Shown in pieces: positions 4,037 through 39,171 of a stretch of DNA of 44,864 nt. The position numbers were made by a program, and so were the translations under genes. The stretch is taken from the NCBI GenBank assembly GCA_013115125.1, contig JABANN010000268.1, forward strand, positions 1 through 44,864, written 5' to 3'. Numbering within the stretch: position 1 is the stretch's first letter; every line of letters starts with the position of its first letter. The notes under the pieces were generated by a model. That model saw nothing but the letters and a program-made list of their open reading frames with translations. It searched no databases and was not told where the DNA came from. The stretch comes from Perkinsus olseni (Eukaryota).

Positions 4037-6780
4037 ATGCCGGAATTGGTGACCGTAGTAGCATCAGCGGAGGAGAGTACCTCGTCGAGGCCATGGTCGC
4101 TGAAGTCGTATGAAAAATCCCTGAGGGCGATGGCTTCTAGCGACGCTGCCCTGAGAGGGTGTGGTGCGATGCTGAGCAGTAGGACCGAAGAGAACCGTTC
4201 TTTTAGTTCGAGGACTTGTTCTCTATCATCAGGTCTCGGAATTGCGGTGATACCGGAGAGTGACACCAGGCCACTGAAGAGCGCCGTCCTGCCTGTCGCC
4301 CTCCTCCCGAGACCCTTCCCGGCCCGCCAGTAGGTTCAGTGGGGGCGTTCCAGTGATAGCTAAGTCGATGGATGGTCAGGTTTAAGGCGGCGTGGCAGCT
4401 GGGCAGCACCATTGCTAAGCTCGTCGACAACATGTCCATCGATCCACAGTGGCTGGTGGACAGTCTGGCGGAAGTAAGGCACCGGTCTATTGATAGCATC
4501 ATCTCCCGGAGGATCCCTCGGTCACAGGTCGCGAAGGCTGATGACTTCACGAGACGGCTGGTGGACATCTGTCGTCGTGTCTACATCGATGGTGGCCGAG
4601 ATCATTCTAAGGACATACGCATGTGAGTTGTGTCGGACTTCCCTCCCGCGCGCAGGAGGGAGGGAGGGCTTCAACGGGCAGCTCCTTTGCGTTCGCTTGC
4701 AAATCTGGAAGTGCTCGACATTCTAATCGACACGCTGGTCGCAATGCTCGCCTTAGTAATACTGTAACCCTGCTGGGCATACCTACTTTTCACGAACTTA
4801 CATGGATCCAGTGCACTGTCGTGTGAGCATCCTGGGTTTCTCAGTCATCTACTCCGCCACGACTATCTCCCCACTACAGTTGATGGCCGCCTTCTACAAG
4901 TTGAAGTCAACACCATAGCTGCTGGCTTTGCGGGGATGGGAACTCAAGTCTCGGTAAGTCATCGAGGCGATGCGTTTCATGGATATACTCAGCGTGATTC
5001 CGTGGAAAGTTGGTACTCGATGTGAGCAGCTATTGCCGCTCCTAATCGTAGTGCGCTTCTTACCAAGTGTCTTTCAGACGTTCCATCGGATGACCGCTTC
5101 TGCGGCCCTCAATGATCTCAAGCCCTCCCAAGTACCGGAGAACAAGCCTATCGCCGACTTTGCGAACGCTATGGCCGAGGCTGTGAGCGCTTACAATGAG
5201 AAGTGGGTCTTGGCCGTAGAATTTCGAGACCCATCTGAGTGTTTGCAGATTCGGTCGCCATTCGCGCACTATTTGCATGGTGGTGGACGCCCCGGAAGAC
5301 AACGAATGCGACCAACGTTTTATAGAGTGGGATTTATTCCAAAATAAACGGTCGTTTATACTCGCACCGCAGGTCTGTGCTTCTTGCCAATCACGGTATT
5401 AACGTTGAACGCCGGACCATGACCGAGTTGGCTGATCATGTTTCTGTGGACAGCCAGACGCACGTGAGACGATGTTCGTCTTCGAGTCGGAGGATTCAAC
5501 TTTTCTTCTTGCAGATTGTCCTGATACCCTCATTAATAGATCCTGAGCGGATGGTGGAAGTAGCTCTTTTTTATTTCCGGACTGGTTACGGACCGAGCCA
5601 GTATCTCAATGGTGAGGGCATGGGGGCAGCGGTGGTGGTCGAAGCGACTGGTGTGGGTAGATTCACACTGGGCCCTCCGTGAGAGTTTGGAGAGGAGCAA
5701 AGCCGTCATGTGTCCATCGGTTCCACAACAGCTCACTGGTAGGCGGAGCGAAGCGATGTCATTTTCGTGCGATTATCGCTGGTTTTGGTTGGACCGGTTT
5801 GCCTTAGGCACTAAAAAAGTACAGCAGCTTTGGTACAGCGATCCGAGTGTGATGACTCAATTTGGATTGACCGAAGAGGAGGCTGATAGGATGAGGGAGC
5901 ATTTTGCGGTGGGTGTGGTGGGCGTGGTGACGGGGGTGGTTGATGGAGTGGCAGGTGCAAGTGGATCCCTCGGTGGCCAAGGAGACTGTCGCAGCTGCTT
6001 TGAAGGACCAAACGGCCTGGGTAGGGAGGACCTCCTCGACATCATCATCATCATCATCATCATCATTTGTCCATCAACAGGTTTTGAAGCCCCAACGTGA
6101 AGGAGGGGGTCACAACATGTACGGCGACGAGCTAGTCGACACCCTCACAACAAGCTCCAACGACGAACTAAAACAGTAACACCCTCGATGGTGACAGCTG
6201 ATCTGAGCTAAGGATCTTGCAGGTTCGTGTTGATGGAGCGGATGCTGCCCGCCCCCCTGCCCTGCCTGGCCATCGATGTGAGTACATCATCCCTCTCCTC
6301 TCCCCACTACGATTCTTGTCTTCAGACCCCAGCCAGTCGGGAAGCCTCTCGAGTGGTACCGAAGATCATCTCCGAGGGGGTATCAGAGTTGGGCATCTAC
6401 TCAGCTTTGGTTATGAAGGGCAATCATACCGTTATGGACAAACCATGTGGGCATATGCTCAGGACTAAGGATGTGTAAGGACCTCTCCCTTCCCGATTCC
6501 ACCACCTTACATTAAGCGTAGGTGGTTTAATACAATAATACTATTTAATAATAATAATTAATACTATGTATAATACAATTAAACAATTAATACAATACTA
6601 TTTAAATTAGGTTTAAATGTATTTAAACCTCCCCCCTCACCTCGCGCTTTCCATTTCCGACTGTCCATCGGCATCCTCTTCTCCCCGATCAGGAACGTCG
6701 CTGAGGGTGGTGTCCATGCCGGCTTCTCGGTTATTGACTCGGCCCTGCTAGTTGATGAAGACGTCTCTTCCTCCTCGTAG
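4037..6780 (+). CDS. GSS: Eukaryotic glutathione synthetase, copy 1 (multi-exon)
   Basis: Spliced product has LLRHDY, QVEVNTIAAGF, YFRTGYGP, CPSVPQQLTGTKKVQQ, VLKPQREGGGHN, FVLMER, SELGIYS, GHMLRTK and EGGVHAGFSVIDS; stop TAG ends at 6780. The start could be the ATG at 3965. Confidence 0.93.
5796..6484 (+). repeat. Near-identical duplicated tract (copy A) shared with 9041-9717
   Basis: Exons and introns of GSS copy 1 match those of copy 2 almost base for base over about 680 nt. Confidence 0.95.
6040..6066. repeat. (CAT)9 microsatellite in a GSS1 intron
   Basis: Nine CAT units; the paralogous intron in GSS2 has only GACATCATCGTCACT. Confidence 0.9.
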
Positions 6781-6944: not shown

Positions 6945-9900
6945 ATGTCCCACCCGATGGTCAGATCAGTCCTCTGACACCAGTTTACGTCGTCTTTGTT
7001 GTTACGTTCCCTGATGCCCTCCCCTCCGAATGCTCATATAGCCTCAGTTGCAGGGCCCTTGCGTGGCAGTGGTGTAGCTGTCCATTCAGTGCCAGGATCG
7101 CCGCCTTTGACGAGAGCCGTCTATGAGAAGTCTCTGAGATCGCTGGCATCCAGCGAGGCTGCACTTCGGGACTGCGGTGCTATGATCAGCAGTACGTCAT
7201 TGCTTGCTTGTGGCATCCTCTTTGCGGTTTTGAAGCTCGTAGCCACGTTCTAGTACTGATAGAGGGAATTCGAGGATTTATTGGTATCTTTTTCTCTGTC
7301 GGGCACCACCTTTGACTGTGTAAATAGTCGCTAGGCTGAGGCTGGACAGAGCGGCTGGTCCCTCTCAACGTCATCATTATTCGACTCACGACCTATGATG
7401 TATCGGACTTCGCGTGATCAACCCGCCCTATCCTCAGGTCTCGGGATATCAGTTCTCCCTGAAAGCAAGACGCAGCCTTTGAACAGCCAAGTTTTACCGT
7501 TGGCTCTTCTGCCCAAACCATTCCCTAAGAAAGAGTAAATCGCGGTCAAGTATGGCTTCGCGGCAGAATCGATTTGCTAAGGTTTGAGGAAGTGTGGGAG
7601 CTCAGCAGCGTCGTGGACAAGCTCATCGACGGTCTGACTACTCACCCTGAGTGGCTCGTCGAGCAATTGCAGGGCGTAAGAGCAGGCCTCTAGGAGTTGG
7701 TTTGATCTGAGGAGTTCGAGTAGGTCACCGAAGCTGATGACTTCACGAGACGGCTGGTCGACATTTGTCGAGATGTCTACATCGATGGCGGCCGAGATCA
7801 TTCTAAGGACATACGCATGTAAGTACCGGTTTCCTGAGCTTCGTCTTGGTCGGGGAGAAGGACTCGCAGCGCTGGCGAGAGCATACGGATAATCTGCGGG
7901 TGGTTCATTGGCTGGTCCTCAAGGTACCTTCTCCGACAGGACTACCTGCCAACGACAGTAGGTAACAGGCTGTTGCAGGTGGAGGTCAACACTGTGGCTG
8001 CTGCTTTCGCTGGGATCGTATCGCGGGTGTCGGTAAGTTCCAACTCGCTCTTTCGGTCCGCATCTTTGGTGACGGCATCCAGTCTGAAATGCCGAAGAAC
8101 CTTTTCGCTACAACCAATTTTGAGTATCATGCCCATCATCTCAGTGCCTCCATCGGATGACGACTCTGGCTGCGCTCGACGGAGTAGCCCAGTTCACCTT
8201 GCCTGATAACAAGGTTGTCAACGCTTTCGCTGATGCCATTGCGGCGGTCAATCGGGTTTATAACGAGACGTAAGACGCGCCGCCCATCGGGGGAGGAAGA
8301 AAAATCGATTTTCGGGGTGGCGCTGCTGTAGATGACTCGATACTGTCAGGTACTGCCGTGACACTCATGATGTCTGCATGGTGGTTGAGGACGGCGAGGA
8401 CAATGAGTGCGACCAGAGATTCCTCGAGTAGGTTGCGCACAGTGAAGATTTTGGATATCCGCTCCATCTTCAGGGCAGCGCTGTTGGTCAACCACAACAT
8501 AGCTGTACATCGAAGGACACTGAAGCAGCTCGCACAGCAGGTCTGTGTTGATGGAAGGACGAAAGTAGGCTGCTGGAGGGGAGGTACTTGGTGAGTTATG
8601 GCTGTGTCGCGATTCTATTCCGTGGCGTCCACGGGTGAACCTCGGATACTAGTGGCATGCACGAGTTAGGACTATCATTTCCTACTTGCGGTTTATCTGT
8701 TATTGCGATTCGCGAATCTCACGAAGGGCCATACCACTCCTTTCGCGCATCCTGCAGAGGCGAAGAGCACAGCGTATCTTCAGGTCGCAAAGATCCCCAA
8801 TATCATCGACCCCAGCCGTATGGTAGAGATCTCGGTCTTCTACTATCGTGCTGGTTATGGACCTGCCCACTACGTCGATGGTGGGTGAGGGCGGAGGGAC
8901 GAACGCGACGGGAATCACTTCTGCTCAGAGTCCTGCTGGGATGTCCGGAAGCGTTTGGAAGAGAGCGTGGCTGTGAAGTGCCCATCAATTCCCGAGCAGC
9001 TGGCCGGTGGGGCTGAGGTGTATCGCACGGGGGGCTAGTTGGTTTGCCTTAGGCACTAAAAAAGTGCAGCAGCTTTGGTACAGCGATCCGAGTGTGATGA
9101 TTCGATTTGGATTGACCGAAGAGGAGGCTGATAGGATGAGGGAGCATTTTGCGGTGGGTGTGGTGGGCGTGGTGACGGGGGTGGTTGATGGAGTGGCAGG
9201 TGCAAGTGGATCCCTCGGTGGCCAAGGAGACTGTCGCAGCTGCTTTGAAGGACCCAACGGCCTGGGTAAGAAAGAGCTCCTCGACGACATCATCGTCACT
9301 TGTCCATCAACAGGTTTTGAAGCCCCAACGTGAAGGAGGGGGTCACAACATGTACGGCGATGAGCTAGTCGACACCCTCACAACAAGCTCCAATGACGAA
9401 CTAAAACAGTAACACCCTCGATGGTGACAGCTGATGTAAAGTGGGCATCTTGCAGGTTCGTGCTGATGGAGCGGATGCTGCCCACCCCCCTGCCCTGCCT
9501 AGCCATCGATGTGAGTACATCTGCCCCCTCCCCTCCCCACTACGATTCTCATCTTCAGACCCCAGCCAGTCGGGAAGCCTCTCGAGTGGTACCTAAGATC
9601 ATCTCCGAGGGGGTATCAGAGTTGGGCATCTACTCAGCTTTGGTTATGAAGGGCAATCATACCGTCATGGACAAACCATGTGGGCATATGCTCAGGACTA
9701 AGGATGTGTAAGGACCTGAGGGGTATCCTGTGAGACCTCACCTGAGCTCCACGAGCGCTCCTAGGATTGGATTTCCCATACAAAAACGATAGCGAATTCA
9801 ACGCTGTTGGAGGTCTATTGAGCATCAATATAGTATGCGAGCCCTTGGGGGCCGGTCTGAGTGACGCAGCCAGGCGCATTCGGAAGCCTCTCGAATGATG

Positions 9901-12153: not shown

Positions 12154-12305
12154 CCTGGCCCGCTTGGTGACGAGGAGAATCGCACCCCAATGTTTTCCTA
12201 CTCACGATTTCGCCTAATTTGATCGTTTTTTATGCCGCCCGAGCGTTGCGCTGTCGTCTCTCGCTGAGCTGTTGGTGATGAGGATGGTCTCAGCTGATTT
12301 GAGCG

Positions 12306-13782
12306 ATGCTTTTGAATGCTTATGACAGTGCTTCCAGCGGCAGCAGTGATTCCTCCGACTGTGATGGTGAGGGAGAAGGAGTAAAACGCGAGCTACCATC
12401 TCCCTTTGCGGGGGAGGAAGATGAGACGGTGGAGCCACACGCTGATCATGTCAATAAAAGAATACGACGGATACCTCACATCGAGGGAAACTACGCTTGT
12501 GAGAAGTCGAGGGGGTGTAGGGTGCACTTCTATCGTAGCGACACCACCTTTTCAGGCACTATTTTTCTGCCATGGACCTCGAATGAAGGAGAAGATTCAT
12601 CGCTGCCAGGCCTGTATCAGAGTGCTCTTCGGCGGGCCTCCGCGTTCTGGCCGGGGCGCGAATGGGAGAAGATGCCGAGTGGAAGTGTTCACTGTAGCTT
12701 GTCCCGGACGGTGATGTTGAAGTAGGCCGGCCAAGGTTGCCTCGCGAAGATTCCACGTTGTTGTTCAGGCATCACCTAATAGGACTGTTCAAGCGAAAGA
12801 TAGCAACCCGGCTCCGAGGAAAACCTCAATTTACGATGTGAGCGTTGGGCTTGGGGGGAGCGGGACAACTTCTGTGTCACCAGGTACGTATCACCGTCCG
12901 CTGTCGACCTCTTCCTGTCGGAGGACAGGACCACTGCATTCTTAGTATCGCCAATAGTTGAGCCAGGACCGGTACCCTCCCTCCCACGTTTCTCCCATCT
13001 TCTCGTTATTGGCCGCAGGTCGTGTCTATGGTACATGCGGTAGATGAGGTGATGAGCGAGTTAGACCTGGAGACGTTCTACGACCCCCCGAAGCCGCACT
13101 TGTCTCTGGCGTGGACTACCATAGATGTTGAAGTATGCCGGCCTACAACAGCCCTCCTTCGAGACAGCGTTGTCCTTGCTCTTTTGGATAGTGCTCGACA
13201 GGCCAATCCTGAATTTCAGAAACGCTCACGAGATTCGAGGTCAATTTATTGGGCAGATTAATTCGAATCAGGATGACGCAGCGGGAGTGCGGGATACCCC
13301 GTGAAGAGCCACATAAGCTCTTGCCCAGCGGCAATGCTGCGCGCAAGGCGCAAGGGATAAGTATAAGCGCTAGTAGCGCGATCCCCAATCTTTCTTTCCA
13401 CCCGCCCGCCCAGGCGGTGCCCCTCGAGCCCAGGCTCTTCAGGCACGGGTCAGGCAGCTACCTAGCCTCGCGTGCCACCCGACCTACTACCCAAGGCCTG
13501 GTCGGAAGGACAGAGAATTATGAATTATACGTGCAAAGTTTTCTCCTGACCCTCTGGAGACCAAACTTGAAACTTGCGCTCTGGTTGGAGAAGAGCACTA
13601 CGCGGTCCTCTCAGGTCCTGTGCGAGAAGGTTCAAAGCCTAGCTGATGGAGAGCAGCATTTCCACCTGTCGTCCAAGAGCGACGAGAGCGCCCCAGCTGA
13701 CGATCTTCTGGGCATCGATGTTACTTCTGCTGTTCTTCGGATTGGTAAAGAGGATACTGTTATTCCTTTGAGTGACGAGTAA
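12306..13782 (+). CDS. USB1: U6 snRNA phosphodiesterase USB1/Mpn1 (2H phosphodiesterase, multi-exon)
   Basis: N-terminal LLNAYDS.., RIRRIPHIEGNYA, two HxS motifs (VHCSLSR and FYDPPKPHLSLAW), EDRTTAFL, C-terminal LRIGKEDTVIPL. Confidence 0.9.
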
Positions 13783-14268: not shown

Positions 14269-17200
14269 CTAAGCGTAGACGAACCCCCGTTCCTCGTAGA
14301 AGTGCTTCAACACTTTCGGGCGTTGGAAGTCGAGACTGACCAGGACCTGTCAGAAGCGTCAGGGGAGAAGGGAGAGCGACTGTTGCCTTACGCAGTCGAT
14401 GGTTTCTGGATCGAGTCCCACGTCCCGCAGAGCCTTCTGGGCATCATCTAGAAAGCAGTCAAAGAAGAAGTCGTTGATCGACAAGAACGCATGGATATCT
14501 TCCAGAGGTCGGCCGGCGTATCCAGCCGGTCCGCCAAGTACCATTGTCAAGTAGTCAACCTGAGAGCAGCCCATCCTACACGTGAAAAACAAGGCAAGAG
14601 TGTGGTACAGTCACAATCGAGTAGCTTGTCTATGGCTTCGTTAAATAGACCGAACAAGATCGGCTCAAGATGGGGGTCCGGTACAACAGTCACTTACCAG
14701 CGATGGCTTCATGGCTTTCACTTTCTCGCTATCAAAGAACATGTTAACTCGCCTGTCGAGACCAATGACCTCAAACAACCGATGGACGAAGCCTTCAACA
14801 CCTGCAGTTAACTGCGTAGTGGCGGGAGCTTCGAGCTTCCCACCTTCGGCGCCTCCAAGTGAGGAGAAGAGGAAGTCATGACCATGCACTTGCCCTTGCC
14901 GCCGAGCCATCTCAGTTCTTACCTGAAAGACCGAAGCTGCGGAACTTGTCGGAATTCACGGTCCCACCGAGCAGCCCGTAGTGATGTCCGGACGGACCAT
15001 ATTCATGATCTGCAGCGCATCATCGATGGCGTCTCCATTCAGGCTCATCGAGCTGACAAGAGAAGTCAGGCGTGAACTAACGGCAGCCCTCACCCCATGA
15101 CTTCTTGGGCGAGCTGCAGGACAGTGTCAAAGTGATAGTCTCTGATGTTCATAGAATAGTGAGCGGGCTTGAGGTGTGCCATGTCGTATTGGACCGGTCC
15201 ACCTGCACGTATGACTGCAGCGAGGCGAACGCTACGACAGTCGGGTCATACCGAAGAGACCACTGAGAAGCTGGTACATCTTGATCCTGACTTGTCGGGC
15301 CTTTGCCTTCCCTTTGTCGAAGAAGTACCTTCACGTGTCCAACCCCCTTTTCACAGCGAGGGCGTATCTGGCTTACTTTATTCTCGTGTCTTCCTGGCAC
15401 CTCTCGTACAGACTCTCCACAACGCTCTCCAAGTTGAGGTCACCGCCCAAGCGCTCAACAAGAGCCTGAAAGGCTGTATCGTCAGAGCTTCTGCGGTGGC
15501 AGCGGCCATCTCACCACGCCCTCCTTGTGGGCTAGTTGTGTTGCATCATTATCCTTCCGGCCAAGTACGCCCTGCCGCAAGGGCTCGACAGTTACCATGA
15601 CCTTCAATGGAACGGTATCGCGATCAGCAGTAGCGGCACGACGCACCTCATCGATAAGCTGTTCGTCCGCGCCACCTCCCATCAAAGCCTTCTGCAAGTC
15701 AGCGAGGAACGCATCGAAGTGGTAGTCATCCAACCCGACTTCTCGGTGTATATTGGCTATTTCACGACCTGGGCAGACACTACTTGTGCGGTCCGAAGGC
15801 TAAGCCCGTCTTTGCGGCCGGGCTACTGAGCTGAGCTTACCTTGATATGTCTTTGGGCCGCCCCAGGTCTCAACAAGAACCGTCGTGATTCCTTTCTTAA
15901 TAGCATTGACTTTTGCTTCTTTCCGATTCTCGAAGAATTCCCTCACTCGAGGATCGGCCACCAGGACGCCGAAGAGTTTGTCTATAAGGGCGATAATCCC
16001 ATCGCTCTCGCCTAACTTCCGGAACAGCTGATCTCGCCCCTTCTCTAAGTTCCTTTTGGCTAGTTCGCTCCGCAAAGTGAACCCGGTCGTGACGAGCTTC
16101 CTCACTGGCTGCAGGGCCTTCAGAAAATCTCGGACTATAGGCCGGTCGACCTTCTCTGCTATCAAGCAACCTCTGAATAACTCCAGGATTGAGTCGAAGT
16201 GGTAGTTGGTGATGTTCATGGCGTAATGGACCGGTTGAAGATCGGCTTCATCGTACTTAACAGGCCCGCCGATCAGACCGCAAATGTATTGCGACATCTT
16301 CTTCTTGATGGACTGTATTTTCGCCTTGTTCTTCTCGAAGAAAGAGCGCAGACGACTATCAAGGATGGCCTCCTCATATACCCTGTCGACTAAACCTGTT
16401 ACAGCCTAACAAAAGCAACGCATACAAGAAGCTGTCGCACGAAAGAGACTGATTATTATCAGTCAGTTTGGCCGAGTGGTCTAAGGCGCCAGACTCAAGT
16501 TCTGGTGGAGAAATCCGCGTGGGTTCGAACCCCACAGCTGACATATCACTCCTCTTATTCTGTCTCACCGGCTCGTCTCCCAAAATCTCGTATACCGTCT
16601 TCTTATTAGCAAGAGTAAGAAATTTCCGCACATCGTGTTCTCTTCTGTTTGAATTAATCACGGATGCCCGGCTCCCTTCCAGTAATACAACGCCTGACGA
16701 AGATATCCACTGAATGTGTGCACACAGCGGCTAGCCACGGCCATCGAATTCTCTCATCTTGAGGCACAACAGCTTCGGAAAGCACTATTCAGTTTTTTTC
16801 AGCTACTTACACTCATCAGTAGCTTCCTGGTCAAGCCCGGCCTCTTTGAATGATAGCGCACATGCGTGTATAAAACAATCGAAATGGAAGTCACTGATCT
16901 GTATAAGACTGTGAACTTGAGCTATATCTCTACCAGTGTATCTGACATGAGGCACCTTTACCCTCATGAGTGTTTGAAGCGACAGCAACTTCATCAGGAT
17001 GTTCGGGGCGAGAAGCAGTCATAGCGAATGTTTAATTGAATTCCGCACACATACGAACACGCAATTTAAGATTCTGGATTACTCATCGACTCCACCGAAC
17101 ATCTGGTTGAGGTAGAGGCTTAGCTTTCCTTTGAGAACATCTGTCTTGGCGCCCGCGAAGAAGTATGCTATGCGTTGATCTGCGTGCAGGCGCCTGAGAT

Positions 17201-20200
17201 GGATTAATTCTCCGGAGGGCCTCAATCTGAGACGCAGCCGAGTCGACTGATCTCGAGGTTACTTGAAAAGCTTGTCGACAAATACGACGATGCCGTCTTT
17301 CTTGCCCAGCTGTGAGTACAGGCTTGCTGTTCCTGCACTTTCAATACTGCGATGGGCGATTTCGAGACGAATAGTGCCTACAGCAAGTTTGAAAGATACT
17401 TCTTGAAATGCTCGCGAACGCCGCCATGCACTGGCTCACATCCGCTGGTGATTTCCTGGCGTAACTTCACAACCGTCTCCATGAGCTCATCGATGAATGT
17501 AGGTGAAACGTCCATGACTTCGCAGGAGACTCGCAGATTCTCACAGACAGCGTCGAAATGATAATCAGTGATGTTGTGATTGAAGTGGGCGGGCTTCAAT
17601 CGTGCAATGTCGTACAGCTTGGGCCCTCCGCAAGCCCCTATCAGGAGCTGCGTTAAGCGAATCTTTATTTGCCTCATGCGGGCAGCGTCCAAATGGAAGA
17701 AAAATTTAACGCGAGGGTCCAAGTTGAGCGCGCTGAACAAGGTGTCTACGACGCCCTCGATCGTCATTTCTCCGCCGACGCGCTCCAGTAGATTCTTCCC
17801 ATCTACAATACGAGCGCTGGACTCCACTCGCTTTTTCTGGCCGGAGAGAACGCTGGTCCGCTGAGGCTCGAGGATAACCATGATCTCATCTACTGTGTCG
17901 TCATCGACGCCGAGACTAGACAGTGCCCGCTCGATGTCCATCAGGAAGGCATCGAAATGAAAGTCATTGAGCTCCAGTGAACGGTGTAGAGAAGAAAGGT
18001 TCTTTCCCTTATACGTTAGAGGACCACCCAAAACATCAGTTAGATAGTACAGCAGACCTTCTTGTATGGTGTCGATGTCCCGGTCTTCAAAGGCCCACAA
18101 GATACGCTTATCCAAGGATATGATGTCCATCAAACGCTCTATGAAGGGGACTAGGTCGTCGTTGTCTCCGATAAGCTTCTCGTAAAGGCCCTCGAGGCCA
18201 CGCTCGTTGTTGCGACGAGCGATTTCTGTTCTCACAGTGTATCCGGTGGTAACTTCTCGACGTGTCTGAGTGGGAGAGATGCACTCAGATGATGGCCTCG
18301 GCGCGATGCAGCAACCGTGTTATCAATTCGAGCATCATTGACAGGGATTCGGTTGTTGGTACCTTTCCTAGCAGGGTCCCCACCTCCTCCGTTACTGCCG
18401 GATGAATTCCAACCTGATCCAAATTATTCCGGTCACTACGGGCTTATCTCTGAGCGAGAGTAGCTCCCACCTCGTTGAACGCCGCAGTGAAAAGCTCGAC
18501 GACACAATCGAAATGCACATCGGTGATGTTGAGATAGTAGTGAGCGGTTTTAACCGCTGTGACGTCGTAGCTGTAGGGCCCACCGAGAGTTCTGAGGGAG
18601 GGACAAACTCAGCGACGGGCGAGGAGAGATGGGATAGAGAGCAATCAGGAGATCTACAGAAAAATCGACAGGCTTATTGATATAGATAGAATGAAGAAGC
18701 CCCCTGACTCCGAACTTCATTTCGATCGATCGACCGCCGCCATCGTATTATACGGTATCATTTATTTGAACGTGCTTTCCACATCACCAAGCATTACAGC
18801 ATTCTACTGTAATGGATGTCGGTGGTGATTACCAACCAGCAAACCGGATCCGTTTACATACTACATATTCAACAAGCAGCTTGGCGCAGTGGATAGCGTG
18901 TTGGGCTCATAACCCAAAGGTCCTTTGATCGAAACAAGGAGCTGCTATTTTTCCGGCAAAAATACTAAACGTCGATAAATTCAATACGTAGGCAGACGCA
19001 CGCAATCACATCTCGACACTCATACAGTTCATAGGCCCATGGCCAGTCACCAGACTGCAAGAGAAGCAGCACAGTTGAGCGAGTCTCAGAAAGCCTACAG
19101 AAGACACACGACTCAGATCCCGTCTCACGCAGCGAGGAACGTCTGTAACTTCTGCTTCAAGTGTTTCACTTTACGAGAGTTCTTCTCGAAGTACGCCCGA
19201 GTTCGGGGCTCCGTAATAGCCTTATCTGTCCACAAGACAAACCCTTGATTGTAGCCCAGGAAGTTCATGAACCACTGCAGCGAAATCTACCGTAGAAATT
19301 GGCAACGATAGCTTCGAGTTTTCGGTCGCCCCCGGCTCTTTCGAATAACGATCGCGATTTGTCGTCATGTCCGATCCTTCTCTTCACTAAAGCCGCTTTC
19401 TGAGGATGCACGAAACTGCTTTGAAAGCACTGCTCGGACGACGAGGAAAGAGGAGTGTCTTAAGATATGTGTCAAGCGTACTTGATGCCTCTTCTCCTCT
19501 TGAGCGGAGGCGGCATCACGCACCATGGCCTTGAACCTGAGCACAATCGCGAGGTTTGTCCCAAGGTTTGCGGTTCAACGGCGTCTGAACGCAGGGATCC
19601 GCAAATAGCCGAAGCTCTATCCCTCCTATCAGCTGCCACCCACTTCGACATATCCTGAGATATCTTGTCCAGCGCGGTTTCGACTATCCCCGAGTTCAGC
19701 GTAACCGAGTGTTCTTTCCCTCCCTGTGCAAGTCCAGTCGACTCGACGTTCTTCACGAGATCGTCTTGCAACACGTCCATCCTCTTTATTACATCCCCAA
19801 GGCGATCCTTCACAACTGAGCGGAGCGAAGGAGCTCGCGTTCTCTGGTACCTCCACGTTATAACGTTAAACCCGGTCTACTTAATTCCGGTATCCTCAGA
19901 AGCGAATTCGCCACATTTTGCCGGAAACTAGAACACTGAGATTGCTCCTGGTTTAGCCTCGAGCCAATTCAGGAGGCGGGCAGAGATCATTGGTGTCCAG
20001 CAGTAAAGTTTGCGAGAACATCGCCGATGAGTATGAGACTTCAACTCGCTCTCATACTCATCGGCGTCCAGGTGGCTCTGTACTACCTCCGATTTCCGAC
20101 TGAGACTTCTCAACCGCGGAAAGGAGACGATTGATGTTGGCCATGGGAAGCGGCGACTCGCCACTGGCTAGCATAACGCTGATCGACTCGACTGGCGAGA

Positions 20201-28500: not shown

Positions 28501-30128
28501 GTTGGTCGTGGAGACGGAATGCTCCAAAGGTCCTGCACTCGATATGGAGAAACCGAGGCTGCATGTGGCGTCCGCGGATGACGCTCCTTCGGATAATCGT
28601 CTGGTGTGGGCACCGCACTGGTGAGAACAGTTTTGGGCATACGGCGCGGCAGATCGCTCGGGTGCTCAGGTATGATGGGCTTACTTTTCAATTTTGCGTC
28701 TACCGCACATGGGCGGCCATGAGAGTCTCGGAAGAGGGAATGAGCGTGAGCCATGAGGTCCCGGGTTCAAATCCTGGTGATGGTATTTTGGCAGCTTGCC
28801 CTGGGCCCGGATGTCGCAGAAGGCGTTCATGAGGAGTCCCTTAAGAGGGTGGCCGGCAGCGGTGACGCGGTTGGTCCAACTTTACTCGGGGAGTCGGGCG
28901 TGCACTGGTGTGGGGGTTACGGTAAGGGCTGAGAGTTTGTGGACGGTCTACTGTTTCTATGCAGCTATCACTGACATGGCTCTGAATGACAGCATGTGCG
29001 CTATTGAAAATAGCCTCGTACCAGCGGTGACTATATGGAACTATGCACCTAATAACAATGAGAAGGAACAGGTGAGTATGATGGTGGACAATGACGATGC
29101 GTCTTCGTGACGCAGGGCTGGAAATTGTTTTTTGTGTGGGTGTGTAGCTCAGTGGTAGAGCGGCTGACTGCAGATCAGCAGGTCCTCGGTTCAAATCCGG
29201 GCGCGCCCTCTTTTTTCCAGCTGTTTCACACTGCAGTTTGAGCGACTGGATTCTGTTATCCTCCAGGATGGCTGGAACAAGGAAGATCTTTCGATCTTTA
29301 CTAGCGAGCCTAATCCTCGACCTGACAGCAACGGCGGCCCTCACCTCCGAATGCCATCCTCGGTCAGGCCGTACCCTTTCAAGTATTACGGTGACTGCTC
29401 TTCGTTTCACTGCGTGTTTGTTTCACCTCATTCGCACGCCGTGTTTTGCGTGCATGGATCCGCTCTGCTGCCATTCTTCCAGGTTGGCGGGTAAACCAGT
29501 AGAAGTACACTTCAACGGCTTGAGCAACGACAAGTCCTTCATTTTGCGATTCGAGATGGATCCGAAATGCAGTAGGAAACTGAGATCAACTAATGTCGTC
29601 CGACTCTCCGTTTTCAGCGACTAGTGTGTCGGAGATTTTTGTACCTCTGTGCATCCACTATCCGAACGGAATAGAAGTCAAGGTCAGTCACCTCCTTATC
29701 GGTGAGCTTGAGTGCGACACGTCAGGTTTCTGATGGGAGCTGGGAGCTAGACGCCGCGAATCAGACTTTGTTTTATATACATAATCCAGATGTAGTGCGG
29801 GGGCAGGGCTCTCGGAGTGATTGACATGCAGTCGTCGTTTACTGTCAGTTTACTACACACACGTTGCGTGTGTCTCGCGCGTCGACAGCACCATCCCGTA
29901 CTGAGGTAGGGATCAGTCGGGCAACGATGACGAATGGAAAGAAATAGAAAGATGGCAGCGAGTCTACATGCCCATTGGGGCCGCCCTGGCCTGCCTTCTC
30001 TGGTACTTTTGTATGTGATATGCTTCAACATTCTCTGCGGCACAGGCTCAGTATTCCGAAATTGTCGCTGTTTAGGGAGCGTCTCCCTCATTCTCCAGTA
30101 CGCTGACGGAGGTTGCGTTTTTCAATAA
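25577..30128 (+). CDS. GH5 endoglycoceramidase-related protein, copy 2, probable C-terminal CaaX (CVFQ)
   Basis: FRDSKGRRVHLRGINVGGMSK, MDPHQD, GGDGAPRW, GFETMNEP, LLGESGVHW, IWNY, DGWNKEDLSI, RPYP. Last exon YADGGCVFQ* joins in phase to ..SRTE. Ends tentative. Confidence 0.88.
28750..28785 (+). pseudogene. Collapsed tRNA relic (acceptor strands, variable loop and T arm; D and anticodon arms missing) filling intron 28746-28794
   Basis: GCCAT-GAGGTC-CCGGG-TTCAAAT-CCTGG-TGATGGT-A-TTTT: intact B box, paired T stem, GCCAT pairs with ATGGT, followed by an oligo-T. Confidence 0.75.
29138..29209 (+). tRNA. trnC-GCA: tRNA-Cys(GCA), sense within GH5 copy 2 intron 29072-29266
   Basis: Acceptor GGGTGTG/CGCGCCC, D arm GCTC/GAGC, anticodon arm GCTGA-CTGCAGA-TCAGC, T arm CTCGG-TTCAAAT-CCGGG, T73, TTTTTT at 29211-29216. 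Confidence 0.97.
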
Positions 30129-36110: not shown

Positions 36111-38010
36111 ATTTCTTGCTAGACCAGGCTTGCTTGCCGGGCCCGGTCTGAGAAAGTTGATTCGATTCGAGTGTCGTAACACTGCCATCGGAATGGTTAC
36201 CCCGCTGTCTGGCTGATAGCCGCATAGGAGTAAAGGCAGGTTGATCTCGGAATTGCATTGGAGGGGTCGAGTTGTCGGTCAATGGGGCTGCGGTAGGACA
36301 TGGAAACATTGCGGTGAGGCGTTGGTTCGCACTTATGGTAAAGTGTTTTCGCAGGATTCGCAGGCGATTTGGGAAGGACTGGTCTCTACTTGCGGATGGC
36401 TCAGAGAAACTAGCGAGAACGCAGCGTGGTGGAAGTCAGTGGCAAGGTGATAGGGGGTCTCTGGGTACACATACTTACGGAAATTCTCGGGAGGACTCGG
36501 GAGGAGCCGTTCCTGGAAGCTCAGAGTTTAGTTCATGACTTCTCGACGATCGCTTTATTAGACTTTTCGCGGCGATGTTTCAATTAAAGTTGCCTCGGGA
36601 GAGGCGAGGGTATGCCACACGCGGCGAGTAGTGCAAGGCCGAGGCGACATTCGAGAGAAGCCTCTGTCAGAGACAAAAGGACATTTCTCCCCTGCTAAAA
36701 ATTGTTGTGACAGTTCTAGCTTGCAGTAGCAAGCATATGAGTTGTCACACTCATAAGAACAGATACTACACTTGATCATAGCCAAAAGGCCGAGAAGGTA
36801 TGCTTCTTAGTAACCCCGATAATCTATTCGCAAAAGCGATGCAACGAAGATGTGGTATGATGGAAACTCGCCCGCCCTGAACTTAGCGTACGGGCTCCTC
36901 CACACAATGGTGCTGTCTCCCTCTGGATGGGCTTTGCTTCGCACTGTACGACACCATAAGTCGTCGTCGATGCGCCAATTGCCAAATGCGGCGTTGGGGA
37001 GGGTAAGCTGCAGATGAATGGGTAACTGGCGACGGTTCTCGCCATCGTCACCTGCGGGCCGCCGGGGCTATGCCACTGCGACTCTTCCGGCGGCGGGGTT
37101 GTTCGGACAGTGTCCGCGTTGGGTGCGGATATTCTGGCTACGGCTTGGGCCGACCGGAAAGAGAGGACGGAGTTTACTGAGATGAGGCTATGGAGGAGAT
37201 TGGTGATTAAATCAACAGCGCCCCAGCGCGGATGAGAGGCCCTCAGGTACTTAAGGGCATGCGCGAAAAAGTGAGATTCTTAGAGGCTTCCGCGCCTACA
37301 ATCAGAGTATCCTTTGCGCCGTGCCTCGCTTTGGTCAGCGTTACGTAGACCCTGAAGGCGCCGCCACTGCGCCTCTTCGAGTGTTTATTACAGTTGCCCG
37401 CTAACGGGCGCCCTAAAAATTGCCTAAATGACCGTTAGATCATTAGGACGGGAATTGGAGTAGTTTTCAACTAGCAATAAGCGCATCTCCGCAAGGCGTC
37501 ATAGATAGCGCTATTGCCCCTCCCGCAAGGATAGCTGAAATGGCGCCGACAGAAGCTTCTCGGGCGCGATGTGGGAATGGAGTGGTATGGGAGTGACAGC
37601 GGAGCGAAGCGAGACATGTTTATCACTTTCGCTTTTTATTCTTCATCCTGTTACTCCCGCTCAAACCGGATCACATAACCATACCGTATTAGCGTGGACC
37701 ACCACGGGAATCTGGATAATGATCATTGGATGACAGCAGCCACTCGGCAGTCGGTTATTGCCGAGCCAGCTCATGTTCTCGGGCCTCGTAGCAGACAATC
37801 TGCTAGCGCGGGGAGACAATCGACACAAGCTATAATCCCGACCGCCAGTGTGCAGACGCCCCCCTCAAGCGTGAATGAATGATTTTGTCGCAGACGGTGG
37901 GTACTTTGTGGAGAAAAAAACTCCTCCCTTTGCCGGTTAGGCTTTGTGAGCAGCAATGTGTATAATGTGCAGTTGCGTCTTCCTCTCAGTTCGTTGCTCC
38001 AGTCGCCGTT

Positions 38011-39171
38011 ATGTTTAGTCGACTCTGCACCCTCGCAATCATCACCGCCCCCTGCGTCTCCGCTTGGGGTGTTGACGGTCACTCGACCGTGGCCGAGGTT
38101 GGCGACAACCGTCTCTCGGTGAACGCCAGACAGGCCGTCAATGCCATTATGGGTGATGGCGTCCGCCTTGGAGAGTTCTCTAGCTGGCCCGACTTCATTC
38201 TCCACGGTACTCCTGAGGAGAAGGAAGACTGGGGATGGTCTGCCGGATTGCACTATGCCGATTCTCAAGACTGCACTTTCGTGTACGACCGTGACTGCAA
38301 GGACGACTGGTGCGTCGCTGGTGCCATCAAGAACTACACCCGAAGGGTTGCCGATGAGTCCCTCTCCCGTTACGAGCGTCAGGTGGCAATGAAGTTCCTC
38401 GTCCATTTCATGGGTGACATCCACCAGCCCCTTCACGCTGGAAGCTCCTCCAACCTTGGTGGTAACTTGATCAAGGTCACCACTGACTTTGCCAACAACA
38501 AGAGCACCAACCTTCACTCCGTGTGGGACTTCAGTCTCCTCGATCAGTGGGAGCTCGAGCGTTATGCCGGCCAGTACGTCTTCCAGGACGATCCGGCTGA
38601 TCACCCCGGCGAGGATGACGAGATTCAGAGGATTGATCGCACCCGCTTCTGGACTAACATCGTCGACTCTATCGGTGTTGATTTGATGGTTGGTGGAAAG
38701 TACGCCGACAAGGTCGACGGCTGGCTGAAGGACTGTGAGACTAGGGGTATTGATGAGTGTGTCAACACTATGCTCGAAGACGATGTGAATGTCGCCTGCA
38801 GTATGGCCTACACTAACGTCGACGGCACTCCGGTGAAGAGCGGTGATGTCCTCTCCTTCGACTACTACACTACTCGTATTGAGACTGTCAGGGAACAGCT
38901 GGCTAAGGGAGGTGTTCGTTTCGCCTGGTTGTTGAACAACATCTTCGAAGATGGCACCACCGTCATCGATGACGCCACTACCACTCCCGCTCCTGCGACT
39001 ACTACTGCCCCCACCACTACCCCCAGTATGTCTTGCGAGGAGGCCGATAAGGTCTGCGCCAAGTCTTTCGATGGCTCTTATTGCAAGTACTGGCTTGACC
39101 AGCCCGTTTGCTCCGGTAGCGATGAGCCTTGCTCCTGCTCAGCTCAGTCCACCGCTGCGGCCGACTTGTAA
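38011..39171 (+). CDS. Secreted S1/P1 nuclease with Thr/Pro linker and C-terminal Cys-rich module; intronless
   Basis: 386-aa ORF: signal peptide, mature N-terminus WGVDGH, WPD, LHYAD, CVAGAIKNYT, FLVHFMGDIHQPLH, NLHSVWD, QLAKGGVRFAWLLN; then TTTPAPATTTAPTTTP and a six-Cys tail. Confidence 0.96.
   Translation: MFSRLCTLAIITAPCVSAWGVDGHSTVAEVGDNRLSVNARQAVNAIMGDGVRLGEFSSWPDFILHGTPEEKEDWGWSAGLHYADSQDCTFVYDRDCKDDWCVAGAIKNYTRRVADESLSRYERQVAMKFLVHFMGDIHQPLHAGSSSNLGGNLIKVTTDFANNKSTNLHSVWDFSLLDQWELERYAGQYVFQDDPADHPGEDDEIQRIDRTRFWTNIVDSIGVDLMVGGKYADKVDGWLKDCETRGIDECVNTMLEDDVNVACSMAYTNVDGTPVKSGDVLSFDYYTTRIETVREQLAKGGVRFAWLLNNIFEDGTTVIDDATTTPAPATTTAPTTTPSMSCEEADKVCAKSFDGSYCKYWLDQPVCSGSDEPCSCSAQSTAAADL

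What the first reader, a model, noticed from the sequence alone, without database searches (positions are those of the whole stretch)
14269..19350. Octa-globin: eight truncated haemoglobin domains in one polypeptide, built as (A-B)x4
Seen: eight 2/2-globin domains splice into one frame and all keep the proximal His (KTAH, SSLH, KPAH, AQVH, QPVH, ANIH, KPAH, EDIH). Each odd-to-even junction has the same linker (EVTTGYTVRTEIARRN, EITSGCTIRLEIAHRS, LVTTGFTLRSELAKRN, DITTGCSVRTEMARRQ), while even-to-odd junctions differ, so a fused didomain was amplified fourfold. The distal B9-B10 position varies (FY, LM, LF, LF, VY, LF, LY, LF), with Tyr only in odd domains. Known: group I trHbs are normally single-domain O2/NO-binding proteins. 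Inference: a multi-haem array with functionally distinct A and B sites, acting as an NO/O2 sink, haem store, sensor or electron wire.
Basis: partly seen in the sequence, partly recalled or inferred. Interest (0 to 1): 0.85.

Follow-up and report, generated by a model that had tools for sequence, protein, structure and literature searches.

The report
Eight-haem globin gene of Perkinsus
A gene of a Perkinsus-type shellfish parasite joins eight small haemoglobin domains of two alternating types into one protein that is predicted to pack as a single unit; the design is old and shared with a free-living relative, and its job (probably handling oxygen or nitric oxide) is untested.

Summary
Observation confirmed and extended. 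A spliced alignment gives one minus-strand gene, 20144-14269, with 23 exons, 22 GT-AG introns and 1176 codons. Eight group I truncated globin domains follow; all keep His F8. The same leader plus eight domains in fixed order occurs in at least six P. olseni paralogues, in other Perkinsus, in a complete Oxyrrhis marina transcript and in unnamed eukaryotes. Trees support A/B alternation and two doublings (AB, then ABAB, then twice that). Family-wide, A sites carry Lys/Arg E10 and Met E11; B sites carry small E10, Gln E11 and Phe G8. 'Tyr B10 only in odd domains' holds for this paralogue only: it lost Tyr B10 and Gln E11 in all four B sites. AlphaFold2 of the 82%-identical orthologue gives pTM 0.68 (control 0.36, imperfect), suggesting a compact octamer. 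Best reading: a cytosolic multi-haem O2/NO buffer (0.5). Multi-unit truncated globins are known in silico from ciliates; this fixed (AB)x4 family was not found in eight literature searches. The scan noted paralogues before on other pieces of this genome. No haem, expression or activity data exist.

The parts
14269..20144 (-). Octa-globin gene, 23 exons, 22 GT-AG introns, 1176 aa, 132.5 kDa
   Evidence: colinear with Oxyrrhis transcript P0193, 474 of 1158 identical, largest gap 5 aa
19355..20144 (-).
   Evidence: helices 2-49 and 61-97 in the orthologue model, pLDDT about 60-70
18248..19354 (-). Globin domain 1 (type A): Tyr B10, Lys E10, Leu E11, His F8 181
18197..18262 (-). A-to-B linker 1, helical extension of helix H
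17846..18196 (-). Globin domain 2 (type B): Met B10, Gly E10, Leu E11, His F8 315, Phe G8
17447..17800 (-). Globin domain 3 (type A): Phe B10, Arg E10, Leu E11, His F8 448
17331..17461 (-). A-to-B linker 2, split by a 62-nt intron
16656..17330 (-). Globin domain 4 (type B): Phe B10, Lys E10, Leu E11, His F8 582, Phe G8
16088..16601 (-). Globin domain 5 (type A): Tyr B10, Lys E10, Met E11, His F8 717
16034..16105 (-). A-to-B linker 3
15563..16033 (-). Globin domain 6 (type B): Phe B10, Gly E10, Ile E11, His F8 853, Phe G8
14980..15465 (-). Globin domain 7 (type A): Tyr B10, Lys E10, Met E11, His F8 984
14884..14994 (-). A-to-B linker 4, split by a 45-nt intron
14308..14883 (-). Globin domain 8 (type B): Phe B10, Ser E10, Leu E11, His F8 1118, Phe G8
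16462..16543 (+). tRNA-Leu(CAA) gene nested antisense in intron 12 (16568-16406)
   Evidence: ARAGORN; Rfam RF00005 57 bits
18875..18947 (+). tRNA-Met(CAT) gene nested antisense in intron 5 (19128-18592); initiator type by recalled hallmarks, not tested
   Evidence: ARAGORN; Rfam RF00005 56.6 bits

Best explanation
A soluble, cytosolic 132 kDa protein that holds up to eight b-type haems in four A-B pairs. SHOWN: gene structure, eight His F8 globin domains, A/B alternation, an origin before Perkinsus and Oxyrrhis parted, two doublings. PREDICTED: each A domain runs into its B partner through one continuous conserved helix, and the domains pack as one body. INFERRED: it binds O2 and NO and acts as a high-capacity buffer and scavenger. 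In the family consensus B is the open, O2-holding site (Tyr B10, Gln E11, small E10). A carries Lys/Arg E10 and Met E11, which can give a displaceable sixth ligand that favours re-reduction, as with the distal lysine of Chlamydomonas THB1. There is no flavin domain, so turnover needs an outside reductant. In this paralogue the four B pockets are apolar, so they should bind O2 weakly and reversibly (store), while A domains 1, 5 and 7 keep Tyr B10 plus Lys E10 and are the likelier NO-reactive sites.
For: His F8 in 117 of 117 family domains; E10 Lys/Arg in 55 of 58 A against 4 of 59 B; E11 Met in 41 of 58 A with no Gln, Gln in 33 of 59 B; G8 Phe in 50 of 59 B against 8 of 58 A. Closest solved structures are ciliate and mycobacterial group I globins (TM to target 0.89-0.91, rmsd 1.8 A). 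The A-to-B linkers are the best-conserved segments (0.66-0.78 against 0.58-0.66 for domains) and are modelled as continuous helices. pTM 0.68 and mean pLDDT 83.5 for the orthologue against 0.36 and 74.6 for a Tetrahymena seven-globin array. No membrane or signal segment (best hydropathy window 1.37; 0.19 at the N terminus). PMC11904497 section 4: E10 may ligate iron and ease electron transfer; polar B10/E7/E11 goes with high O2 affinity, apolar with storage. PMC4304232 passages: THB1 has a displaceable distal lysine and NO dioxygenase activity in vitro.
Against: No haem, ligand, expression or localisation data for any member. A basic E10 also simply supports haem binding in many truncated globins (PMC4720485 passage), so A need not be six-coordinate. 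E7 is apolar throughout, so the full Tyr/Gln/Gln network of Tetrahymena globin is absent. The pTM control is imperfect: 309 of 1137 control residues were unfolded and its alignment was not in register; no coordinates or haem distances were available. The family is in free-living Oxyrrhis too, so it is not a parasite-specific defence. The odd-domain clade had weak support in the smaller IQ-TREE run (35.9/70).
Confidence: 0.5

Rival explanations
1. A plain oxygen store, like a polymeric myoglobin: joining eight domains raises capacity per molecule, and A/B differences only tune affinity.
For: All four B pockets of this paralogue and its P. chesapeaki orthologue lack Tyr B10 and Gln E11 (2 of 24 sequences with four scorable B domains); apolar pockets go with storage (PMC11904497). 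At least six P. olseni paralogues suggest a need for bulk. No reductase domain.
Against: Most family members keep Tyr B10/Gln E11 in B sites. Strict alternation and a linker better conserved than the domains are more than storage needs; independent arrays in other protists lack both.
Confidence: 0.2
2. A multi-haem electron relay or redox capacitor on the globin fold: six-coordinate A haems (His/Lys or His/Met) pass electrons to B haems or along the chain.
For: Near-fixed Lys/Arg E10 and Met E11 in A only; rigid predicted packing; linker position after the Gly is Cys or an aromatic residue in most members; methionine and lysine ligation are on record for THB1 and a variant.
Against: No haem-haem distance could be measured. 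In a solved globin tetramer the inter-haem distances are 22 and 30 A (PMC11904497 passage), long for fast transfer by general knowledge. Domain 1 and 3 of the window have Leu at E11. No partner reductase known.
Confidence: 0.13
3. A gas or redox sensor or scaffold: ligand binding moves the linker helices and the helical leader passes the signal on or anchors the protein.
For: The leader is kept in all complete members and has two long amphipathic helices. Truncated globins fused to kinases and a chemoreceptor domain occur among the wider hits.
Against: No output domain in the protein; the leader is the least conserved long segment (0.49) and matches no family; eight sites and six paralogues are many for a sensor.
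Confidence: 0.1
4. A haem or iron sink that binds haem taken from prey or host, with no gas chemistry.
For: Eight kept proximal histidines and expansion in Perkinsus.
Against: Type-specific distal residues kept over the whole family point to ligand chemistry at the iron.
Confidence: 0.05
5. An annotation artefact: several tandem globin genes read as one.
For: The guide protein P0001 is itself a gene prediction, and no reads were laid on this gene.
Against: Four of 7 junctions lie within one exon, three span 45-62 nt introns; a complete 1159-aa Oxyrrhis transcript ORF is colinear end to end.
Confidence: 0.02

Closest known systems
Multi-unit T1 (group I) truncated globins of ciliates (Hade et al. 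2017, PMID 28394017; seen only as a title and through the summary in PMC7475203), e.g. Tetrahymena thermophila P0191
   Same: Several 2/2 group I globin domains in one chain of an alveolate; P0191 has 7.
   Different: P0191 carries an AhpC/TSA-Redoxin domain, very short links, no A/B alternation, no linker helix motif; it matches at 25% only. The family here has a fixed eight-domain order, a leader and two pocket types. Whether Hade et al. list a Perkinsus protein could not be checked.
Single-domain group I truncated haemoglobins: Tetrahymena pyriformis trHb (PDB 3AQ5), Paramecium (1DLW), M. tuberculosis HbN (1IDR)
   Same: Fold (TM to target 0.83-0.92), His F8, Phe CD1, Gly-Gly motifs; B domains keep the usual EF-loop pattern.
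   Different: Single domain; polar E7/E11 network, which the window's domains lack at E7 everywhere and at E11 in all eight.
Chlamydomonas reinhardtii THB1 (PDB 4XDI, 6CII)
   Same: Group I globin with Lys at E10; NO dioxygenase in vitro. A domains share the basic E10.
   Different: THB1 is a monomeric single domain; lysine ligation in A domains is untested, and A has Met rather than a polar residue at E11.
TrHbN-2 globins such as Shewanella benthica HbN (PDB 8UGZ)
   Same: Apolar B10, E7, E11, G8, as in this paralogue's B sites.
   Different: Bacterial single domain; here the apolar pocket is a derived state of one paralogue, since most relatives keep Tyr/Gln.
Polymeric 3/3 globins of invertebrates (Artemia, Biomphalaria, Barbatia; recalled, no call)
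   Same: Covalent strings of globin domains made by tandem duplication.
   Different: Different fold class (3/3), mostly extracellular O2 carriers; this protein is 2/2 and has no signal peptide.

Membership tests
Group I (N, T1) truncated haemoglobin domain | 2-over-2 helical globin fold | tested here: met
   AlphaFold2 model of the 82%-identical orthologue; Foldseek best hits T. pyriformis trHb, TM to target 0.89-0.91, rmsd 1.8 A
Group I (N, T1) truncated haemoglobin domain | Proximal His F8 in each domain | tested here: met
   8 of 8 in the window model; 117 of 117 family domains
Group I (N, T1) truncated haemoglobin domain | PF01152 match and group I rather than group II/III as nearest solved relatives | tested here: met
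   8 stretches in 5 of 6 homologues; top 24 PDB sequence hits are group I-type, group II follow at lower scores
Group I (N, T1) truncated haemoglobin domain | Phe CD1; no Trp G8 as in group II | tested here: met
   Phe CD1 in 8 of 8 window domains; G8 is Val/Ile in A, Phe in B
Group I (N, T1) truncated haemoglobin domain | Binds haem b and diatomic ligands | not testable with these tools
   Needs purified protein
High-affinity NO dioxygenase-type trHbN-1 | Tyr B10 with Gln at E7 and/or E11 | tested here: not met
   0 of 8 window domains have Gln at E7 or E11; Tyr B10 in 3 of 8. Met in 33 of 59 family B domains for Gln E11. The window protein is not filed here.
High-affinity NO dioxygenase-type trHbN-1 | Catalytic NO turnover with an electron donor | not testable with these tools
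   No reductase domain in the chain; criterion from PMC3820574 passages
THB1-like Lys E10-ligated globins | Lys at E10 | tested here: met
   Lys in window domains 1, 4, 5, 7, Arg in 3; Lys/Arg in 55 of 58 A domains
THB1-like Lys E10-ligated globins | Lys E10 coordinates the iron | not testable with these tools
   Needs spectra or a holo structure
Multi-unit T1 globins | Two or more T1 domains in one chain | tested here: met
   independent transcript ORF in Oxyrrhis
Ciliate multi-unit T1 lineage | Descent from the ciliate arrays | tested here: inconclusive
   Family domains group apart from the 46 outgroup domains but rooting is weak; no shared linker or register
Flavohaemoglobin or globin-coupled sensor | FAD/NAD reductase or output domain fused to the globin | tested here: not met
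   Only globin matches in Pfam, none in NCBIfam

The most novel reading that the evidence does not exclude
The protein is a self-contained eight-haem redox machine built on the truncated globin fold: a rigid pseudo-tetramer of A-B pairs in which six-coordinate A haems (His/Lys or His/Met) store and hand electrons to ligand-binding B haems, a role otherwise filled by flavin domains or multi-haem cytochromes. It arose once near the base of the Perkinsus-dinoflagellate lineage, and Perkinsus paralogues have since retuned the B sites.
Probability: 0.18. Interest if true: 0.85.

Novelty: new variant of a known kind. Interest (0 to 1): 0.55.

Why it matters
Multi-unit truncated globins are known only in silico, per the review passages read, and no solved chain gave more than one matched stretch. 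This family gives a clean test case: eight sites in fixed order, two pocket types kept from Oxyrrhis to Perkinsus, a predicted compact assembly, and a natural variant (this gene) that has lost the polar distal residues in all B sites. It could show whether covalently joined 2/2 globins cooperate or pass electrons between haems. It also bears on how Perkinsus, which lacks catalase (PMC6642578), copes with oxygen and reactive species; with at least six paralogues P. olseni encodes some 48 such haem sites. A harmless, culturable carrier (Oxyrrhis marina) makes the biochemistry directly testable.

Tried and rejected
No whole genome is held for this window, so paralogues were counted from protein records. 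Sequencing runs: no RNA holder listed; the one read-laying run gave no result, so splicing of this gene stays unobserved. Complex prediction for two copies of the leader: no answer, score 0.01 against a mark of 0.32, alignment not used; neither for nor against oligomers. ESM Atlas gave no usable hit for the whole orthologue or its leader. NCBIfam: 0 families for 3 of 3 proteins. Prokaryotic genomes: 546 stretches matched two patterns, none confirmed; a narrow search. Metagenome contigs: 1 of 20 candidate stretches confirmed. Intron positions do not repeat in register across domains, apart from a phase-0 intron at the same column in domains 6 and 8, so they do not record the doublings. 'Tyr B10 marks A' rejected as a family rule. 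'Eight is a record' rejected: Lacrimia P0037 has 11 Pfam stretches, 12 by my HMMs. P. olseni records of 1386-2375 aa with more than eight domains contain a second leader mid-chain and are read as fused predictions of tandem genes, not 16-mers; not checked on DNA. Parasite-specific defence rejected as the origin, since Oxyrrhis has it. Hade 2017 and the THB1 Biochemistry paper were not held. Neighbouring ORFs gave no functional clue (3 glutathione synthase or HVSL-type weak hits and 1 nuclease among 48 ORFs).
Full report
OBSERVATION. The region holds one intron-rich gene on the minus strand. A protein search with the longest exon found a 1176-aa Perkinsus chesapeaki protein, P0001, and seven other long relatives. 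A spliced alignment guided by P0001 gave 23 exons: 20144-20087, 19815-19644, 19536-19482, 19399-19291, 19225-19129, 18591-18471, 18413-18363, 18265-17440, 17377-17263, 17193-17083, 16941-16811, 16693-16569, 16405-15841, 15768-15647, 15601-15518, 15465-15377, 15328-15252, 15202-15094, 15052-14968, 14922-14844, 14801-14698, 14559-14392, 14346-14272, then a stop at 14271-14269. All 22 introns are GT-AG, 41-537 nt. The product is 1176 aa, 132.5 kDa, 961 of 1176 identical to P0001 without gaps. A partial P. olseni record matches 283 of 295 residues, so the window is probably P. olseni or very close.

ONE CHAIN. P0001 is itself a prediction, so it is no independent proof. Independent points: four of seven inter-domain junctions lie inside one exon, and the other three span introns of 62, 52 and 45 nt. 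A complete 1159-aa ORF from an Oxyrrhis marina transcript (P0193) aligns end to end, 474 of 1158 identical, largest gap 5 residues. Full-length relatives from unnamed contigs align likewise; they are probably intron-free, which I infer from their annotation and from L001, where domains 7-8 run in one frame. Pfam finds 8 stretches in 5 of 6 full-length homologues. HMMs for each position, built without the window protein, find its 8 domains in order at 147-182 bits. Splicing of this gene was not seen in reads.

FAMILY. A profile search of 1.84 billion representatives (best 150 listed) and two further protein searches show a family with a fixed plan: leader, then domains 1-8, each matching its own position best. 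Named members are P. olseni, P. chesapeaki, P. marinus and O. marina; many members are unnamed. No named core dinoflagellate, chromerid, apicomplexan or ciliate member appeared, but only 28 proteins were looked up by name, so absence is weak. No prokaryotic locus was confirmed. A tree of 41 family sequences puts most Perkinsus copies in one clade (support 1.0) with at least six P. olseni lineages; one P. chesapeaki fragment, P0209, falls outside.

HOW IT WAS BUILT. Mean identity is 34-40% among odd positions, 32-40% among even, 22-28% between, and 43-50% for the same position across proteins (117 domains of 15 proteins, 3 domains under 100 aa dropped, 46 outgroup domains). FastTree gives an odd clade at 0.993 and an even clade at 0.878, with pairs 2+6 (0.90), 4+8 (0.91) and 3+7 (0.81). 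IQ-TREE on 70 of the 163 domains keeps the even clade (91/96) but supports the odd clade weakly (36/70) and splits domain 5. A tree of 34 didomain units separates units 1+3 from 2+4 at 99.9/100, though unit 4 is not monophyletic. An AU test rejects the two other pairings at p 0.038 and 0.033, a modest margin. Junctions 2-3 and 6-7 share a consensus that junction 4-5 lacks. So a didomain doubled to four domains, and that doubled to eight, before Perkinsus and Oxyrrhis parted.

POCKETS. Positions were read against a Tetrahymena domain; the helix labels follow the standard numbering as I recall it. His F8 is present in 117 of 117. A domains: Lys/Arg E10 in 55 of 58, Met E11 in 41 of 58, no Gln E11, Tyr B10 in 47 of 58, Phe G8 in 8 of 58. 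B domains: Lys/Arg E10 in 4 of 59, Gln E11 in 33 of 59, Tyr B10 in 32 of 59, Phe G8 in 50 of 59. Among 24 of 39 sequences with four scorable B domains, only the window protein and its orthologue lack both Tyr B10 and Gln E11 in all four; the Oxyrrhis P0193 type keeps the pair in one of four. This gene is thus a paralogue with apolar B sites.

STRUCTURE. AlphaFold2 on P0001 with 38 sequences gave mean pLDDT 83.5 and pTM 0.68. Each A-to-B linker is a continuous helix of 19-36 residues; the B-to-A links 2-3 and 6-7 are low-confidence. These helices are the best-conserved segments. A control, the Tetrahymena seven-globin protein with 27 sequences, gave well-folded domains but pTM 0.36. That favours a compact octamer, with two cautions: 27% of the control was unfolded and its alignment was out of register. 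Foldseek finds only single-domain globins. The leader forms two long helices at pLDDT 60-70 and matches nothing. No membrane or signal segment is seen.

MECHANISM. Shown: gene, domains, alternation, age, doublings. Predicted: rigid A-B pairs in one body. Inferred: haem binding and O2/NO chemistry. PMC11904497 (section 4 and passages) states that E10 can ligate the iron and ease electron transfer, and that polar B10/E7/E11 goes with high O2 affinity and apolar with storage. PMC4304232 (passages) reports a displaceable distal lysine and NO dioxygenase activity for THB1. PMC3820574 (passages) notes that turnover needs an electron donor, ascorbate being one for cytoglobin; PMC6642578 (passages) says P. 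marinus lacks catalase and cites unpublished millimolar ascorbate. Against this, PMC4720485 (passages) lists basic E10 among ordinary haem-binding residues. I put 0.5 on an O2/NO buffer with two site types, 0.2 on a plain O2 store, 0.13 on an electron relay, 0.1 on a sensor or scaffold, 0.05 on a haem sink, 0.02 on an artefact.

WHAT IS KNOWN. PMC7475203 (passages) says multi-unit T globins were identified in silico and that T1 forms occur in ciliates, citing Hade et al. 2017. I saw only that paper's title; it is not held, and its text or supplement may list Perkinsus. Vinogradov et al. 2013 on microbial eukaryote globins is recalled as mentioning multidomain TrHb1; not seen. Eight searches listed no paper on a Perkinsus or Oxyrrhis multi-globin; of these I saw listings, plus passages of PMC3631397, PMC7082302 and PMC11453091, none naming it. 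Subscription journals are mostly outside the library. The scan itself noted paralogues on other pieces of this genome: an eight-domain gene, the alternating pockets, and a tRNA array in an intron. I read them after forming my view; they agree and are not independent evidence.

VERDICT. It is a member of the group I truncated globins by fold and sequence, and of the multi-unit kind by build; it is not filed as a high-affinity NO dioxygenase, since Gln E7/E11 is absent. The fixed (AB)x4 plan with a leader and a conserved linker helix is a new variant of a known kind. Interest 0.55; 0.85 if inter-haem electron relay is shown (probability 0.18).

Noticed in passing
window 16462-16543 and 18875-18947: Two of the window's three tRNA genes lie antisense in introns of this gene. 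An earlier scan note (e1-7223229, unchecked) reports a tRNA-Thr array in an intron of another octa-globin paralogue.
   Followed up: partly
L001 827-910: In an unnamed eukaryote contig a tRNA-Leu(CAA) lies antisense just after the stop of a homologous globin gene: same anticodon and relative strand as in the window's intron 12; 62 of 82 bases identical. One case; may be chance.
   Followed up: partly
L001 927-1769 and 1855-2634: The homologue's neighbours are a mitochondrial carrier and an MCM gene in long open frames, so the unnamed carrier is an intron-poor eukaryote. The globin frame itself breaks near base 600.
   Followed up: partly
P0008, P0028, P0029, P0033: A fast-evolving paralogue group with decayed domains 5-7, some lacking His F8; P0008 and P0004 list the same longest contig length, 31603, suggesting neighbours.
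   Followed up: partly
P0191; P0063, P0079, P0101, P0118; P0081: Other globin fusions among the hits: peroxiredoxin-type domain plus 7 globins (Tetrahymena), protein kinase plus globins, globins plus chemoreceptor signalling domain.
   Followed up: no
P0037, P0041: Independent long arrays of truncated globins: 11-12 domains in the diplonemid Lacrimia, 6-7 in an unnamed record on a 1.03 Mb contig.
   Followed up: no
window 5564-6097 and 7838-8203 (+): Pieces matching eukaryotic glutathione synthase.
   Followed up: no
window 12303-12722 (+): Weak HVSL (PF09749) match, below its cut-off; the gene converges on the globin gene's 3' end.
   Followed up: no
window 37966-39171 (+) and 37771-39138 (-): S1/P1 nuclease in one long open frame in an intron-rich genome, overlapped by a 455-codon antisense open frame.
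   Followed up: no
window 29138-29210 (+): tRNA-Cys(GCA) gene, inside a 193-codon antisense open frame.
   Followed up: no
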